Assembly (NCBI GenBank): GCA_963842855.1
Contig: CAWJHW010000003.1
Span: 696,616 to 760,615, forward strand
Direction of reading: 5' to 3'
Length of the DNA: 64,000 nucleotides
DNA from: an uncultured Methylomirabilota bacterium
GTDB taxonomy: Bacteria; Methylomirabilota; Methylomirabilia; Methylomirabilales; 2-02-FULL-66-22
Shown: piece by piece, positions 15,510 to 19,908 of the stretch
How positions within the stretch are numbered: the first letter of the stretch is position 1
Layout: each line of letters begins with the position of its first letter
Program-made: the position numbers and the translations under genes
Notes under the pieces: model-generated
The model's database searches: none
What the model was told of the DNA's origin: nothing
Seen by the model: only the letters and a program-made list of their open reading frames with translations

Positions 15510-16868
15510 TCAGTACGAGTTGATCATCTCCTCGACGCGGGGGTCGGTGGGCTTGAAGGGGTCCTTACACAGGATGGTGCGCTGGTAGCGGTCGTTGAGT
15601 TTGAGGTAGGACCAGCCCACGTCGTAGGACTTGTTCCGCTCGTTGGCGAACTTGATGAAGTCGGAGCGGATCTTGGCCCGCGTGGTCTGGGGGGACGTCA
15701 GCGTGGCCTCGTCGATCTCCTCGTCGGTGAACAGCCGCTCCACGTGCCCCTGCCGGCAGAGGGCGTTGTACAGGCCCCGGTCCCGGCGGATGTCGTGGTA
15801 CTGCAGGTCCAGCATGCTGATGCGCTGGTCGTCGAAGCCGATGCCCTTCCTCCCCATGTAGGAGGCGATGAGCTCCTTCTTGATGACCCAGTCCAGCTCC
15901 CGGGCGCAGGCCAGGGGGTCCTCGCTCAACCGGTCCAGGACGGCCTGCCACCGCTCTAAAAGGTCGCTCACCTGGGGGGAGAGCTCGGCCGTGGCGTAGT
16001 ACTCCAGGGCCAGCTCCAGGTACTCCCGCTGCAGCTCGATGGCGGAGAACTCCTTCCCCCGCTTCAGGCGGACCTTGCGCCGGCAGGTGGTGTCGTGGGA
16101 GATCTCCTTGATGGCCCGCACCGGGTCCTCCAGCCCGAGGTCCTTCCGGATGACGCCGTCCTCCACCATGGCCAGCACGATGGCCGTGGTCCCCACCTTG
16201 AGGTAGGTCGTCACCTCGGACATGTTGGAGTCCCCGACGATGACGTGGAGCCGCCGGTACTTCTCCTCGTCGGCGTGGGGCTCGTCGCGGGTGTTGATGA
16301 TACCCCGGGAGCTGGTGGTGGCCCCCGAGATCTCCTGGTAGATGTGCTGGGCCCGCTGCGAGATGTAGTAGTGGTTCCCCAGCCGCGTCTTCAGGACCTT
16401 GCCGGCCCCGGCGAAGATCTGGCGGGTGACGAAGAAGGGGATGAGCTGCTCCGCCAGCTTGTGGAAGTTGACCCCTCGCTCCACCAGGTAGTTCTCGTGG
16501 CAACCGTAGGTGTTGCCTACCGAGTCCGTGTTGTTCTTGAAGATGAAGATGTCGCAGTCGATCCCGTTCTCGTGGAGCTTCCGCTCCGCGGTGAGCAGGA
16601 GCTCCTCGATGATCCGCTCCCCGGCCTTGTCGTGGATGGTGAGGTCCAGGGCGTTGTCGCACTCGGGGGTGGCGTACTCGGGGTGGCAACCGGTGTCCTG
16701 GTACAGGCGGGCCCCGTTCCTGAGGAAATCGTTGGTGCCGCGCTGGCGGGAGACGACCTTCTCGAAGAGATAGCCGAGGGCGCTCTCCACCGAGAGGTTC
16801 ACGCGCCCGCCGGCCGAGGATGAGATCAGGCCGTATTCGTTCTCGAGGCCGAAGATGCGCCGCTGCAT
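15510..16868 (-). CDS. pafA: Pup--protein ligase PafA
   Basis: [17 protein letters not shown]..., [28 protein letters not shown] and [36 protein letters not shown]. 452 aa, intact, last gene of the proteasome cluster. Confidence 0.9.
   Translation of the reverse strand: [452 protein letters not shown]
15792..16301 (-). repeat. 510-bp segment of pafA nearly identical to 18738..19248 inside dop
   Basis: Base-by-base hand comparison finds only one substitution (cagcCcgagg vs cagGccgagg) and one 1-nt indel (gtccccgac vs gtcgcccgac). Confidence 0.9.
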
Positions 16869-16889
16869 GGCGGCCGGGACCGGCCGAGA

Positions 16890-17591
16890 TCAGGCGGCCC
16901 CCTCCCCCTCCTTCTCCATCAGCTCCCGGAGCTCGGCCAGGGGGATGCGGCGGAATTTCCGCCCCACCCGCTCCCGCTCCAGGACTGCGACCTCCATGTT
17001 GACCGCCTTGACCTTCTGGCTGGCGGCCGCCTCCAGGCCGCGCCCGGCCAGCCGCAACGCTTCTTCCAGGCTGAGGCTGTCCCGGTACTTGTCCCGCAGG
17101 AACAGCTTCAATTCCTCGGCCTGCCCGCCGATGGTGGCGTAGCCCTTCTCGTCGGCGATGCTCCCGTCGAAGGTGATGCGATACAGCTCGTTCCCGGCCG
17201 TCCCCTCACCCACCTCCAGGACCAGGATCTCCACCTCCAGCGGCTTGATCTCCATGCTGAAGATGTTCCCGATCGCCTGGGAGTAGGCATTCGCCAGCGA
17301 CTTGGCCGTGACGTCCTCGCGGCCGTAGGCGTAGCCTTTGAGGTCGGCGTACCGGATCCCTTCCTTCCGCAGCCGCTCGAACTCGCTGTACTTGCCGGCC
17401 CCCGCGAAGGCGATCCGGTCGTAGATCTCCGAGATCTTGTTCAGGGCGGCGCTGGGATTCTCGGCCAGGATCAGGACGCCGTCCCGGTATTCCAGCGCGA
17501 TGATGGACCGCCCCTTGGCGATGCCCTTGCGGGCGTACTCCGCCTTGTCCTGCATCATCTGCTCGGGAGAGACGTAGTAGGGAAGCGGCAT
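16890..17591 (-). CDS. prcA: 20S proteasome alpha subunit
   Basis: MPLPYYVSPEQMMQDKAEYARKGIAKGRSIIALEYRDGVLILAENPS...YDRIAFAGAGKYSEFE. Confidence 0.9.
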   Translation of the reverse strand: MPLPYYVSPEQMMQDKAEYARKGIAKGRSIIALEYRDGVLILAENPSAALNKISEIYDRIAFAGAGKYSEFERLRKEGIRYADLKGYAYGREDVTAKSLANAYSQAIGNIFSMEIKPLEVEILVLEVGEGTAGNELYRITFDGSIADEKGYATIGGQAEELKLFLRDKYRDSLSLEEALRLAGRGLEAAASQKVKAVNMEVAVLERERVGRKFRRIPLAELRELMEKEGEGAA

Positions 17592-18405: not shown

Positions 18406-18419
18406 GGGCCGCGCACCTC

Positions 18420-19908
18420 CTAGCCTGCCAGCCGCTCCAAGAGGTCGGCCACGCTGTCCGATCGCTCCAGGATCTCCCCCACGAGCTTCCGAGTGCCCCG
18501 GGCGGGCTCGGCCATGGGAATCTTCTTCACCGTGGCCTCGCCCGTGTCCAGGAGGATCGAACTCCAGCTGGCCCCGTAGATGTGATCGGGGAATTTCTTG
18601 AGACAGGTCCCGCGAAAGTAGGCGCGCGTGTCCGCGGGCGGGCTGCCCATCGCCTCCCGGATTTCGGCGTCGGTCAGGATCCGCTCCACGTAGCCCTCGC
18701 GCTCCAGGCGGTAGTAGAGCCCCTTGTCCGCCCGCAGGTCGTGGTACTGCAGGTCCAGCATGCTGATGCGCTGGTCGTCGAAGCCGATGCCCTTCCTCCC
18801 CATGTAGGAGGCGATGAGCTCCTTCTTGATGACCCAGTCCAGCTCCCGGGCGCAGGCCAGGGGGTCCTCGCTCAACCGGTCCAGGACGGCCTGCCACCGC
18901 TCTAAAAGGTCGCTCACCTGGGGGGAGAGCTCGGCCGTGGCGTAGTACTCCAGGGCCAGCTCCAGGTACTCCCGCTGCAGCTCGATGGCGGAGAACTCCT
19001 TCCCCCGCTTCAGGCGGACCTTGCGCCGGCAGGTGGTGTCGTGGGAGATCTCCTTGATGGCCCGCACCGGGTCCTCCAGGCCGAGGTCCTTCCGGATGAC
19101 GCCGTCCTCCACCATGGCCAGCACGATGGCCGTGGTCCCCACCTTGAGGTAGGTCGTCACCTCGGACATGTTGGAGTCGCCCGACGATGACGTGGAGCCG
19201 CCGGTACTTCTCCTCGTCGGCGTGGGGCTCGTCGCGGGTGTTGATGATCGGCCGCTTGGCCATGGTGTCCAGGCCGATCAGGGTCTCGAAGAAATCGGCC
19301 CGCTGGGAGATCTGGTAGTCGCAGGGATCCGTCCCGTTCTCCGCCCCCACCTTGCCGGCGCCGCAGAAGATGATCCGCGAGACCAGAAACGGGGTCAGGC
19401 CCTCCACCAGCTGCTCGAAGGGGAGCCGGCGGGCGACCAGGTAGTTCTCGTGGTAGCCGTAGCTGTTCCCCTTGCCGTCCGTGTTGTTCTTGTAGACGAC
19501 CAGCTGCTGGGGGGGCGGGAGCTTCCGGTTGGCCGCCTCGCGGCACCCGTCGAAGATCCGCTCCCCCGCCTTCTCGAAGAGCACCAGGTCGCGGGCGTTA
19601 GTGGTCTCGGGCGTGGAGTACTCGGGGTGGGCGCCATCCACGTACAGGCGACCGCCGTTCGGCAGCACCTTGTTGATGGCGCGGTTGTCCTGCTGGCTGG
19701 GCCGCTCCCGTTCGCCGCTGACCTCGAATCCCCGGGCGTCCAGCAGCGGATTCTCGCCCGCGTAGTCCCACATGGCCCTGAGGGGCTCGCCCATGGGCAG
19801 CGCGTTGATGAGGAAGATGGAGCTGCCGACGGGATCGAAGCCGGAGGTGTCCCGGGCCGTGATTCCGACCTCCGTCTCGCTCCCCATGATCTTCTCGATG
19901 GCCATCAA
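18420..19908 (-). pseudogene. dop: Pup deamidase/depupylase Dop, one apparent 1-nt insertion near 19178
   Basis: N-terminus MMAIEKIMGSETEVGI.., Dop-specific insertion ...ARGFEVSGERERPSQQDNRAINKVLPNGG.., [31 protein letters not shown]. The frame then breaks. The continuation [11 protein letters not shown]...LDLQYHDLRADKGLYYRLEREGYVERILTDAEI...ERLAG* is ORF 18420..19169. Confidence 0.85.
18738..19248 (-). repeat. 511-bp segment of dop nearly identical to 15792..16301 inside pafA (direct repeat, 2.9 kb apart)
   Basis: See the partner entry. The dop frameshift (extra C in gggCgactcc) lies inside this segment. Confidence 0.9.

What the first reader, a model, noticed from the sequence alone, without database searches (positions are those of the whole stretch)
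15792..19248. About 510 bp nearly identical between pafA and dop: gene conversion or chimeric assembly
Segments 15792-16301 (pafA) and 18738-19248 (dop) differ by one substitution and one 1-nt indel in my base-by-base comparison.

The shared stretch encodes ...[36 protein letters not shown]...[14 protein letters not shown], about 170 aa. PafA and Dop are paralogues that normally share only moderate identity outside the active-site motifs. The flanks here are clearly different: a Dop-specific loop N-terminally, and distinct C-termini.

The only dop frameshift lies inside the shared tract.

Either a recent pafA-to-dop conversion replaced the middle of Dop, possibly inactivating it, or the assembler collapsed or cross-joined the two paralogues.

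As a direct repeat 2.9 kb apart, it would also be a substrate for deleting prcBA.
Basis: seen in the sequence. Interest (0 to 1): 0.65.

Follow-up and report, generated by a model that had tools for sequence, protein, structure and literature searches.

The report
Shared identical module in dop and pafA
The 510-bp stretch shared by the tag-adding enzyme gene (pafA) and the tag-removing enzyme gene (dop) is real, and it is kept identical by repeated copying between the two genes in most Methylomirabilota genomes examined; the copied block stops exactly where the residues that make one enzyme a ligase and the other a hydrolase begin.

Summary
Window 15792-16301 (pafA) and 18738-19248 (dop) differ by one synonymous substitution and one extra base. 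The flanks are only about 50-63% identical.

It is not an assembly artefact, and it is not a one-off event. The window belongs to Methylomirabilota (NC10). In 15 of 21 NC10 loci carrying both genes on one contig (the window included), the same tract is 99-100% identical between dop and pafA. Its borders agree within about 4 nt. Two of these loci are Nanopore-only contigs of about 200 kb. Between genomes the tract is only 64-95% identical.

Trees of the N- and C-terminal parts split by gene. The tree of the tract groups the two copies by genome. This is segmental concerted evolution by recurrent gene conversion. Third-codon-position GC is raised in the tract only in genomes where the copies are homogenised.

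The tract starts at strand beta7, three residues after the alpha-loop. It contains none of the experimentally defined residues that switch Dop to a ligase.

The repeat also disrupts short-read assemblies. Of 93 NC10 contigs, 34 end inside it and 18 skip prcBA.

The dop frameshift occurs only in this window. It is one of at least five frameshifts in the 64 kb, so it is probably a sequencing error.

The parts
15510..16868 (-). pafA, the Pup-protein ligase. It is an intact 452-aa ORF.
   Evidence: TIGR03686 gives 574.5 bits against a cut-off of 551.3. Pfam Pup_ligase gives 513.6 bits. The flanks keep the PafA-type alpha-loop [16 protein letters not shown] and the QDTGC insertion.
15792..16301 (-). 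Conversion tract, pafA copy (510 nt, codons 190-359). It encodes strand beta7 through to the end of the helical part of the N-terminal domain.
   Evidence: It aligns to A. cellulolyticus Dop residues 223-393 and starts at C. glutamicum PafA residue 203.
16302..16349 (-). pafA alpha-loop coding segment, immediately 5' of the tract. It is class-specific.
   Evidence: Its translation is [16 protein letters not shown]. It is invariant in all 11 NC10 PafA sequences aligned and different from the Dop equivalent. It corresponds to Cg-PafA H188-S200 in Hecht 2020 Table 1.
16134..16134 (-). The single substitution between the two copies. On the plus strand it is C in pafA at 16134 and G in dop at 19080. 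The codons are GGG and GGC, both glycine.
16890..17591 (-). prcA, the proteasome alpha subunit.
   Evidence: TIGR03691 gives 312 bits.
17608..18405 (-). prcB, the proteasome beta subunit, with a GTG start.
   Evidence: TIGR03690 gives 299 bits. The start was checked.
18420..19905 (-). dop, the depupylase. It is 1483 nt plus a stop codon and is interrupted by one extra base. Once repaired it encodes a 494-aa canonical Dop.
   Evidence: In complete relatives dop is 1482-1509 nt and intact.
18738..19248 (-). Conversion tract, dop copy (511 nt, including the extra base).
19179..19180 (-). The +1 insertion that breaks the dop reading frame. The window reads GTC GGG C GAC. Relatives read GTC GGC GAC, and the window's pafA reads GTC GGG GAC.
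19249..19296 (-). dop alpha-loop coding segment, immediately 5' of the tract. It is class-specific.
   Evidence: Its translation is DFFETLIGLDTMAKRP. It is conserved in NC10 Dop. It corresponds to Ac-Dop F208-K220, the loop preceding beta7 that binds the Pup C-terminus.
19678..19824 (-). Coding segment for the Dop-loop insertion, which PafA lacks. It includes the conserved tryptophan (AMWDY).
20049..21838 (-). arc/mpa, the proteasome ATPase. Two +1 insertions (20887 and 20625) split it over three frames.
22408..22602 (-). pup. It encodes 64 aa ending in GGE.
   Evidence: Pfam PF05639 gives 76.7 bits. The sequence was found.

Best explanation
The window carries the Pup-proteasome operon of a Methylomirabilota (NC10) bacterium, in the order pup-arc-dop-prcB-prcA-pafA. 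dop and pafA are ancient paralogues with opposite activities: dop removes the Pup tag and pafA attaches it.

In this phylum a 510-nt internal segment of the two genes, 2.95 kb apart in direct orientation, is repeatedly homogenised by intrachromosomal, homology-dependent gene conversion. This is segmental concerted evolution. The segment runs from strand beta7, which carries the shared catalytic Arg and His residues, through the helical part of the N-terminal domain.

The tract borders stay fixed for two reasons. First, the sequence just outside is too divergent to support strand exchange. Second, conversion that spread into the neighbouring alpha-loop, or into the C-terminal domain, would change a hydrolase towards a ligase or the reverse, and would be removed by selection. 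Inside the tract both enzymes need the same functions, so identity is tolerated.

What is shown here:
- the identity of the two copies;
- its recurrence in many lineages;
- the conserved borders;
- the discordance between the trees;
- the compositional footprint.

What is inferred:
- the recombination mechanism (RecA-type conversion);
- the role of selection at the borders;
- the view that the single extra base in the window's dop is a sequencing or assembly error, or a very recent lesion, rather than a consequence of conversion.
For: 1. Recurrence. Among NC10 loci with both genes on one contig, the 510-nt tract shows 0-1 differences in L001, L006, L009, L012, L018, L021, L082, L087, L088, L118, L121 and L137. 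It shows 5 differences in L124 and L142. The window itself has 1 substitution and 1 indel.

2. Conserved borders. The borders fall at codon-alignment columns 692-697 and 1218-1222 in all seven genomes that were codon-aligned (difference maps).

3. Independence of lineages. The tract is only 64-95% identical between genomes, which matches the flanks.

4. Tree discordance. Neighbour-joining trees of the N and C partitions separate a dop clade from a pafA clade. The tree of the middle partition pairs dop with pafA of the same genome for 10 of 11 NC10 genomes; in L004 the two copies are adjacent, not sisters.

5. Synonymous sites. dS between the copies is 0.008 in the tract and 0.5-0.95 in the flanks.

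6. Independence of technology. L006 (221 kb) and L009 (197 kb) are Microflora Danica MAG contigs. That project used Nanopore-only metaFlye assemblies polished with Medaka (PMC12313526).

7. Assembly signature. Of 93 NC10 contigs, 34 end inside the tract, clustering at +98 to +142 nt and at about +510 nt. That is where a de Bruijn graph with k of about 99-141 breaks at a perfect repeat. A further 18 skip the prcBA loop. Among 67 outgroup contigs the corresponding count is 1 (Fisher p = 6e-15).

8. Decay states. L004, L008, L010/L117, L014 and L123 show mosaic identity of 74-92%, with near-identical sub-runs of about 60-125 nt at the 5' end. Conversion that has lapsed would leave this pattern. 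An assembly artefact would not.

9. Compositional footprint. GC3 of the tract minus GC3 of the flanks is +0.084 in homogenised genomes (13 of 13 positive). It is +0.007 in non-homogenised NC10 genomes (n = 5) and +0.012 in outgroups (n = 51). Mann-Whitney p = 3e-6 and 1.6e-3.

10. Functional partition. Every position mutated to turn Dop into a ligase lies outside Ac-Dop 223-393. These are residues 27-103, the Dop-loop, the alpha-loop 208-220 and Ser452 (PMC7947786). The alpha-loop directly precedes beta7 (PMC8599861). It is strictly class-specific in every NC10 sequence.

11. The frameshift. Every relative has an intact dop. dN/dS of the window's dop against L001 is 0.10-0.28. The window also has +1 insertions in arc (two) and in an aminotransferase, and a split HlyD-type gene.
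Against: No reads are available, so the window's own assembly cannot be checked directly. The exact PafA protein of the window is not on record, and no contig closer than about 91% nt identity was found.

The genomes are not phylogenetically independent. The Mann-Whitney p values and the count of 'independent' conversions are therefore upper-bound impressions.

Short-read assemblers could in principle write the same consensus into both copies when the copies differ at only a few sites. The exact figure of 0-1 differences is therefore less secure than the near-identity itself.

The role of selection, as opposed to mere lack of homology, at the borders is inferred from actinobacterial biochemistry. 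It was not tested in NC10 enzymes.

Three of the five detected frameshifts cluster in arc and dop. That fits real decay of this pathway as well as it fits random error.
Confidence: 0.9

Rival explanations
1. Assembly artefact in this window. The assembler, or a polishing step, wrote the pafA middle segment into dop (or the reverse), and the true dop middle is divergent.
For: The repeat demonstrably confuses assemblers elsewhere. Thirty-four contigs end in it, 18 contigs are chimeras of the dop N-terminus, the tract and the pafA C-terminus, and one shows a loop duplication. The window has several indel errors. The extra base lies at a codon where the relatives read GGC and the window's pafA reads GGG. 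Polishing with cross-mapped reads could produce this.
Against: The same tract with the same borders is present in at least 14 other contigs from different projects and assemblers, including two Nanopore-only contigs. In the window both copies sit in their correct, distinct flanks. Partly decayed tracts in L004, L008, L010 and L014 and the GC3 footprint cannot be made by an assembler. A chimera would also have to use exactly the borders seen in all the other genomes.
Confidence: 0.03
2. A one-off, recent pafA-to-dop conversion specific to this genome replaced the middle of Dop and thereby inactivated it.
For: The last homogenising event in this lineage is indeed recent, since only 1-2 point differences remain. 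The frameshift lies inside the tract.
Against: The state is ancestral and lineage-wide, not specific to this genome. Relatives with an identical tract have an intact dop. The tract contains no residue known to discriminate ligase from depupylase, so conversion as such should be functionally neutral. The donor direction is equivocal. The frameshift is absent from the pafA copy, so it arose after or apart from conversion.
Confidence: 0.04
3. The frameshifts are real. This organism is losing the regulatory arm of its Pup-proteasome system, with arc and dop becoming pseudogenes, while pafA, prcB and prcA stay intact. Its Pup ends in GGE, so Dop is not needed to activate it. This reading is compatible with the concerted-evolution explanation and rivals only the 'sequencing error' sub-claim.
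For: Three +1 insertions fall within 1.7 kb of arc and dop, and none falls in the 3.7 kb of prcB-prcA-pafA. Pup ends in GGE. The insertions are not plain homopolymer-length errors.
Against: Unrelated genes are also frameshifted: an aminotransferase at 14337 and a HlyD-type gene near 1770. All four located events are +1 insertions, which looks like a systematic error profile. The window's dop shows strong purifying selection since its split from L001 (dN/dS 0.10-0.28). It has no other lesion.
Confidence: 0.3
4. There is no recombination. Extreme purifying selection or codon bias on a shared functional module keeps the two segments alike.
For: The segment is the best conserved part of both proteins, and GC3 is about 0.99 in this genome.
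Against: Identity extends to every synonymous site within a genome, while orthologous tracts differ by up to 36% between genomes. Outgroup pairs under the same constraints are only 47-67% identical. Selection on the protein cannot give a tree that groups the copies by genome.
Confidence: 0.01

Closest known systems
Long-lasting concerted evolution of prokaryotic paralogues by recurrent gene conversion. Examples are tufA/tufB, rRNA operons, and the 26 genes catalogued by Wang and Chen 2018 (PMC6053082).
   Same: Paralogues in one genome are more alike than orthologues between genomes. Identity extends to synonymous sites. The pattern recurs over deep divergences and is attributed to ongoing gene conversion.
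   Different: Those cases involve whole genes with the same, redundant function. Here only an internal 510-nt module is homogenised, between two enzymes that catalyse opposite reactions, and both flanks stay anciently diverged. pafA, dop, Pup and the proteasome are not mentioned in that catalogue. No paper in the held library links gene conversion with dop/pafA.
Segment-limited gene conversion between functionally diverged paralogues in eukaryotes, for example red/green opsins, RHD/RHCE and globins. This comparison rests on my own knowledge and was not checked here.
   Same: Conversion tracts are bounded by the segments that carry the functional difference. This gives mosaic genes with homogenised and diverged blocks.
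   Different: Here the setting is a bacterial operon. The borders are conserved to within a few nucleotides across a phylum. The functional determinants on either side are experimentally defined.
Engineered conversion of Dop into a Pup ligase (Hecht et al. 2020, PMC7947786).
   Same: That work defines the parts that decide ligase versus hydrolase: residues 27-103 including the Dop-loop, the alpha-loop 208-220, and Ser452. These are exactly the parts that remain paralogue-specific in NC10. It implies the rest is interchangeable.
   Different: That was laboratory mutagenesis of the M. smegmatis enzyme. Here nature keeps the remaining central module literally identical in the two enzymes. Twelve 'uniquely conserved' positions (numbers 34-45) between residues 221 and 450 were not tested there. 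Those that fall inside the tract must be shared by both enzymes in NC10.
GC-biased gene conversion in bacteria. The hypothesis is known to me from the literature and was not looked up here.
   Same: GC3 is raised specifically in the segment that undergoes conversion, and only in genomes where conversion is current.
   Different: This is a single-locus, within-genome (paralogue) footprint, not a genome-wide correlation with recombination. It is suggestive only.

Membership tests
Pup-protein ligase PafA (NCBIfam TIGR03686) | The whole-protein score reaches the curated equivalog cut-off. | tested here: met
   574.5 bits against a cut-off of 551.3. The Dop model gives only 420.4 bits, below its cut-off.
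Pup-protein ligase PafA (NCBIfam TIGR03686) | PafA-type signature outside the tract: no Dop-loop, the one-residue insertion after the catalytic Asp, and a PafA-type alpha-loop. | tested here: met
   The window has [13 protein letters not shown] and [16 protein letters not shown], and no 40-residue insertion. These were compared with Table 1 of PMC7947786.
Depupylase/deamidase Dop (NCBIfam TIGR03688) | The whole-protein score reaches the curated equivalog cut-off. | tested here: met
The PafA model gives 414.1 bits, below its cut-off.
Depupylase/deamidase Dop (NCBIfam TIGR03688) | Dop-loop with its conserved Trp, a Dop-type alpha-loop with the Thr that contacts the Pup C-terminus, and the C-terminal Ser-Trp. 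| tested here: met
   The window has AMWDYAGEN, DFFETLIGLDTMAKRP and GASWSS. Definitions come from PMC8599861 and PMC7947786. One deviation: VD-GA replaces the actinobacterial VDHA, and all NC10 and Nitrospirota Dop sequences share this.
Depupylase/deamidase Dop (NCBIfam TIGR03688) | An uninterrupted reading frame, meaning a functional gene in this genome. | tested here: not met
   One extra base at 19179/19180 gives 1483 nt instead of 1482. Whether the base exists in the organism cannot be told without reads.
Concerted evolution by gene conversion | Paralogous segments group by genome while flanking segments group by gene. | tested here: met
   Neighbour-joining trees of the N, M and C partitions.
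Concerted evolution by gene conversion | Identity includes synonymous sites, with sharp tract borders. | tested here: met
   dS is 0.008 in the tract against 0.5-0.95 in the flanks. The borders lie within about 4 nt in seven genomes.
Concerted evolution by gene conversion | Homogenisation is recurrent and independent in diverged lineages. | tested here: met
   The copies are 99-100% identical within each of 15 loci, while tracts are 64-95% identical between genomes.
Concerted evolution by gene conversion | Direct evidence of the recombination process, such as RecA dependence or observed conversion events. | not testable with these tools
   This needs experiments or population-level long reads.
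Collapsed or chimeric repeat (assembly artefact) | The feature is restricted to one assembly or one sequencing technology. | tested here: not met
   It is present in SPAdes-type, JGI and Nanopore/metaFlye contigs from many projects.
Collapsed or chimeric repeat (assembly artefact) | Abnormal read depth or missing spanning reads at the copies. | not testable with these tools
   No reads are available. The window's PafA is not on record in the contig index.
Programmed +1 ribosomal frameshift in dop | The shift site is conserved in relatives. | tested here: not met
   All 16 relatives are in frame at this codon, reading GGC/GGT GAC.

The most novel reading that the evidence does not exclude
The identity of the central module may be adaptive, not merely tolerated. 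There are two possible routes. In the first, keeping the ATP- and phosphate-handling core and the helical body of the ligase and the depupylase literally identical keeps the two opposing enzymes matched as Pup and the proteasome evolve. In the second, the 510-bp direct repeat serves as a recombination switch that reversibly deletes or duplicates prcBA in natural populations. The 18 deletion-type and one duplication-type junction contigs would then be real variants with hybrid Dop/PafA genes.
Probability: 0.12. Interest if true: 0.8.

Novelty: new member of a known kind. Interest (0 to 1): 0.6.

Why it matters
**For Pup-proteasome biology.** This is a natural experiment spanning much of a phylum. 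Two enzymes with opposite activities work with an identical 170-residue core. What makes a ligase or a depupylase must therefore lie in the N-terminal 220 residues and the C-terminal 100 residues. This agrees with, and extends, the mutational work on mycobacterial Dop. The 'uniquely conserved' positions inside the tract that were never tested become dispensable candidates.

**For molecular evolution.** I found no earlier report of concerted evolution between dop and pafA. It is a cleanly bounded bacterial example of module-limited concerted evolution between functionally antagonistic paralogues. It includes decay states and a GC-biased footprint, so it can be used to study how conversion is sustained and how it is lost.

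**For metagenomics.** The repeat is a systematic trap. More than half of the NC10 contigs at this locus either break in it or skip prcBA. This can produce false 'fused Dop/PafA' genes and false absence of the proteasome in MAG-based surveys.

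Tried and rejected
- Exact-sequence look-up of the window's PafA to find the source assembly and reads returned nothing.
- The genome and metagenome scans found no contig of the same species. The best was about 91% nt identity. The frameshift could therefore not be checked in an independent assembly.
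- A GC3-phase segmentation to find frameshifts was too noisy. I replaced it with an ORF-based test of where the coding signal ends relative to the stop codon, followed by Pfam confirmation. That test misses frameshifts where the old frame stays open, so 'at least five' is a lower bound.
- My first two tabulations of tract identity used wrong offsets (the identity and run values there are meaningless). One search corrected them. The categories are unaffected.
- The donor direction gave conflicting weak signals: Dop-like, PafA-like. I left it undecided.
- I tried to establish from the literature whether the tract forms the Pup-binding groove. The texts I could read do not give groove residues, and the Ozcelik 2012 paper is not held. 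I make no claim about the groove.
- I considered a programmed +1 frameshift at GGG-CGA-C and rejected it, because no relative has the site.
- I considered a mobile cassette or intein and rejected it. The tract is homologous, residue for residue, to the same region of all Dop and PafA structures.
- I did not run structure prediction or the large protein searches, because the PDB sequence alignments gave the mapping I needed.

Full report
**1.
A repeat search and a base-by-base comparison show the following. Window 15792-16232 equals 18738-19178 except at 16134/19080. Window 16233-16301 equals 19180-19248 perfectly. The dop copy therefore carries one extra base at 19179/19180. Both copies lie on the minus strand, 2946-2947 nt apart, in direct orientation. 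The substitution is synonymous, and the 170 encoded residues ([11 protein letters not shown]...MLDLQYHD) are identical. Directly outside the tract, identity falls to about 63% on the N-terminal side and 51% on the C-terminal side. Synonymous divergence between the copies is 0.008 inside the tract and 0.5-0.95 outside it. No other repeat of at least 60 nt exists in the 64-kb window.

**2. The locus.**
On the minus strand the genes are:
- pup (22408-22602; Pfam Pup 76.7 bits; ends in GGE)
- arc/mpa (20049-21838)
- dop (18420-19905)
- prcB (17608-18405)
- prcA (16890-17591)
- pafA (15510-16868)

pafA passes the PafA equivalog cut-off (574.5 against 551.3 bits). The frame-repaired dop passes the Dop cut-off (569.8 against 492.3 bits). 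Each fails the other model's cut-off. Outside the tract each gene keeps the signature of its class. dop has the Dop-loop with its tryptophan, the alpha-loop DFFETLIGLDTMAKRP and the C-terminal Ser-Trp. pafA has no Dop-loop, has the extra residue after the catalytic Asp (QDTGC), and has the alpha-loop [16 protein letters not shown].

**3. Relatives.**
I scanned one genome per species with the dop-specific N-terminal 219 residues. The scan placed the window in Methylomirabilota (NC10). The best match was 95% at the amino-acid level and about 91% at the nucleotide level. Nitrospirota and others formed the outgroups. A scan of metagenome contigs added 80 more loci. No contig of the window's own species was found, and its PafA is not on record.

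**4. The tract is a property of the lineage.**
Where dop and pafA lie on one contig, the 510 nt following the alpha-loop were compared without gaps.
- L001, L006, L009, L012, L018, L021, L082, L087, L088, L118, L121 and L137 show 0-1 differences.
- L124 and L142 show 5 differences.
- L123 is 91.6% identical over the 346 nt that could be compared.
- L004 (80.6%), L014 (79.0%), L008 (74.3%) and L010/L117 (about 83%, with an indel) have diverged.
- In 51 outgroup loci, identity is 47-67% and the longest identical run is 30 nt.

In the seven genomes that were codon-aligned, the identical block starts at alignment columns 692-697 and ends at 1218-1222. The difference maps show the same two sharp edges. 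Between genomes the tract is as diverged as the flanks. For example, the window against L021 is 72% identical in the tract and 66-79% in the flanks, and L009 against L018 is 64% in the tract. Homogenisation has therefore been renewed separately in lineages that split long ago.

**5. Phylogenetic test.**
Neighbour-joining trees of the N-terminal and C-terminal partitions each split cleanly into a dop clade and a pafA clade. The tree of the tract pairs dop with pafA of the same genome for 10 of 11 NC10 genomes. This includes three of the four partly diverged pairs; in L004 the two copies are adjacent but not sisters. This is the defining pattern of concerted evolution.

**6. It is not an assembly artefact.**
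- The contigs come from many projects and assemblers.
- L006 (221 kb) and L009 (197 kb) are Microflora Danica MAG contigs. That project assembled Nanopore reads alone with metaFlye and polished with Medaka (PMC12313526). Reads of several kb span a 510-nt repeat together with its flanks.
- The partly decayed, mosaic tracts of L004, L008, L010, L014 and L123 are intermediate evolutionary states that no assembler would invent.
- GC3 of the tract exceeds GC3 of the flanks by 0.084 on average in homogenised genomes (13 of 13 positive, up to +0.19). The excess is 0.007 in non-homogenised NC10 genomes and 0.012 in outgroups (Mann-Whitney p = 3e-6 and 1.6e-3). This fits GC-biased conversion acting only where conversion is current. 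The p values ignore shared ancestry.

**7. The repeat does damage short-read assemblies.**
Of 93 NC10-clade contigs, 34 end inside the tract. Their end points cluster at +98 to +142 nt and at about +510 nt. A de Bruijn graph with k of about 99-141 breaks at these points when it meets a perfect repeat. A further 18 contigs run from the dop N-terminus through the tract into the pafA C-terminus, omitting dopC-prcB-prcA-pafN. Among 67 outgroup contigs only one ends there and none is chimeric (Fisher p = 6e-15). One contig, L142, has the reciprocal arrangement. There the unit tract-dopC-prcB-prcA-pafN occurs twice at 99.83% identity. In the assembly graph the segment between the two copies is a loop, which assemblers may skip or traverse twice. 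Neither long-read contig shows such a junction. I therefore regard these as artefacts, but real deletion or duplication variants cannot be excluded without reads. Among the 26 NC10 species representatives, 6 have the identical tract, 13 break in it and 1 is chimeric. Four have diverged copies, and 2 carry a complete dop on a contig without a usable pafA.

**8. What the tract encodes, and why its borders sit where they do.**
By sequence alignment to solved structures, the tract corresponds to A. cellulolyticus Dop residues 223-393 and starts at C. glutamicum PafA residue 203. It begins at strand beta7. It contains the shared active-site residues Arg227/Arg207, His231 and His241 (PMC8599861; PMC10465538). 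It continues through the helical part of the roughly 400-residue N-terminal domain (PMC3511204).

Hecht et al. turned Dop into a ligase by changing residues 27, 31, 80-84, 93-96 and 101-103, deleting the Dop-loop, replacing the alpha-loop 208-220, and changing Ser452 (PMC7947786, Table 1). Every one of these positions lies outside the tract. The last alpha-loop residue (Lys220) is three residues before the tract starts. [quoted passage not shown] The nine residues preceding Arg227 decide what that arginine does. In all NC10 sequences the two alpha-loops are highly conserved within each class and unlike each other.

My inference has two parts. First, conversion can only start and resolve inside the homologous block, because the 60 nt upstream are about 40% identical. 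Second, any event that carried the neighbouring alpha-loop or the C-terminal domain across would blur ligase and hydrolase and be selected out. Once a block is identical it remains a good recombination substrate, so the state sustains itself. When enough differences accumulate it lapses, as in L004, L008, L010 and L014. Nitrospirota have the same gene order and spacing, but their identical runs are at most 30 nt, and they show no homogenisation.

**9. Donor direction.**
The tract alone scores 211 bits on the Dop model and 200 bits on the PafA model. It matches actinobacterial Dop structures better than C. glutamicum PafA (246 and 218 against 174 bits). However, it is 56-60% identical to Nitrospirota PafA tracts against 52-54% for their Dop tracts. 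PafA also evolves more slowly, at 64% against 57% identity among the outgroups.

**10. The frameshift.**
All 16 relatives examined have an intact dop. Only the window has 1483 nt. At the affected glycine codon most relatives read GGC, the window's pafA reads GGG, and the window's dop reads GGGC. The simplest history is an ancestral GGC in dop with one added G, plus a C-to-G change in pafA. The copies then differ at two synonymous sites and one inserted base.

Compared with L001, the window has two more +1 insertions, both in arc (20887 and 20625), which split it over three frames. Compared with L002 and L088, it has a +1 insertion at 14337 that splits a class-III aminotransferase. A HlyD-type gene is split near 1770. 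That makes at least five frameshifts in 64 kb, in unrelated genes, and all four that could be located are +1 insertions.

The window's dop shows dN/dS of 0.10-0.28 against L001. That does not fit a long-standing pseudogene. I judge a sequencing or assembly error more likely (about 0.6-0.7) than a real, very recent lesion. The clustering of three events in arc and dop remains unexplained. Because Pup ends in GGE, Dop would not be needed to activate it, so loss of Dop would be less harmful here than in mycobacteria. A programmed +1 frameshift is rejected because no relative has the site.

**11. Comparison with what is known.**
Concerted evolution by gene conversion is well known in bacteria. A genome-wide survey lists 26 long-lasting cases, all whole genes with the same function, and none of them is pafA, dop, Pup or a proteasome gene (PMC6053082). 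Full-text searches that combined gene conversion, recombination or paralogues with PafA and Dop, or pupylation with Methylomirabilis, found nothing relevant. The published phylogeny of Dop and PafA notes NC10 homologues only in passing (PMC7947786).

I therefore class this as a new member of a known kind. It has an unusual feature: the exchange is confined to one internal module of two enzymes with opposite activities, and the module's edges coincide with the experimentally mapped determinants of that difference.

**12. Verdict.**
Confidence that the tract is real and maintained by recurrent conversion is about 0.9. Interest is 0.6.

Noticed in passing
window 22408-22602 (-): pup lies upstream of arc and not between dop and prcB. 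The dop stop (18420) is about 15 nt from the prcB GTG start (18405). Pup ends in GGE, so it would be ligation-competent without deamidation by Dop.
   Followed up: partly
window 20049-21838 (-): The proteasome ATPase gene arc/mpa is split over three reading frames. Two single-base insertions relative to L001 cause this, at 20887 and 20625. Neither is a plain homopolymer error.
   Followed up: partly
window 13301-14660 (+): A class-III aminotransferase is split by a +1 insertion at 14337 relative to L002 and L088. Pfam profile positions 11-312 fall in one ORF and 319-401 in the next.
   Followed up: partly
window about 956-2360 (-): A HlyD-type membrane-fusion gene appears split near 1770. The Biotin_lipoyl_2 domain is in one ORF and HlyD_D23 in the next frame. 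No relative was available to locate the lesion.
   Followed up: partly
L142 6658-12657: There is a tandem duplication of the 3.1-kb unit tract-dopC-prcB-prcA-pafN at 99.83% identity. It creates a hybrid gene made of the pafA N-terminus, the tract and the dop C-terminus. It is either the reciprocal product of unequal crossing-over at the repeat or an assembler going round the loop twice.
   Followed up: partly
L002, L089, L090, L092, L095, L099, L101-L103, L106, L107, L128, L131, L133, L134, L140, L144, L147: Eighteen short-read contigs fuse the dop N-terminus, the tract and the pafA C-terminus and lack prcBA. In L002 the contig continues into the aminotransferase gene that lies beyond pafA in the window. 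These would be annotated as a single fused Dop/PafA gene in a genome without a proteasome.
   Followed up: partly
L001 6374-6537 and 8268-8431: A second copy of the last ~165 nt of pafA lies 1.9 kb downstream of the gene, at 97.6% identity. The window has no such copy.
   Followed up: no
window about 19610-19625 (-), and all NC10 and Nitrospirota dop genes: Dop reads VD-GA after the catalytic Asp, where actinobacterial Dop has VDHA. Hecht et al. list His95 as uniquely conserved in Dop, and glycine is the PafA state at that position.
   Followed up: no
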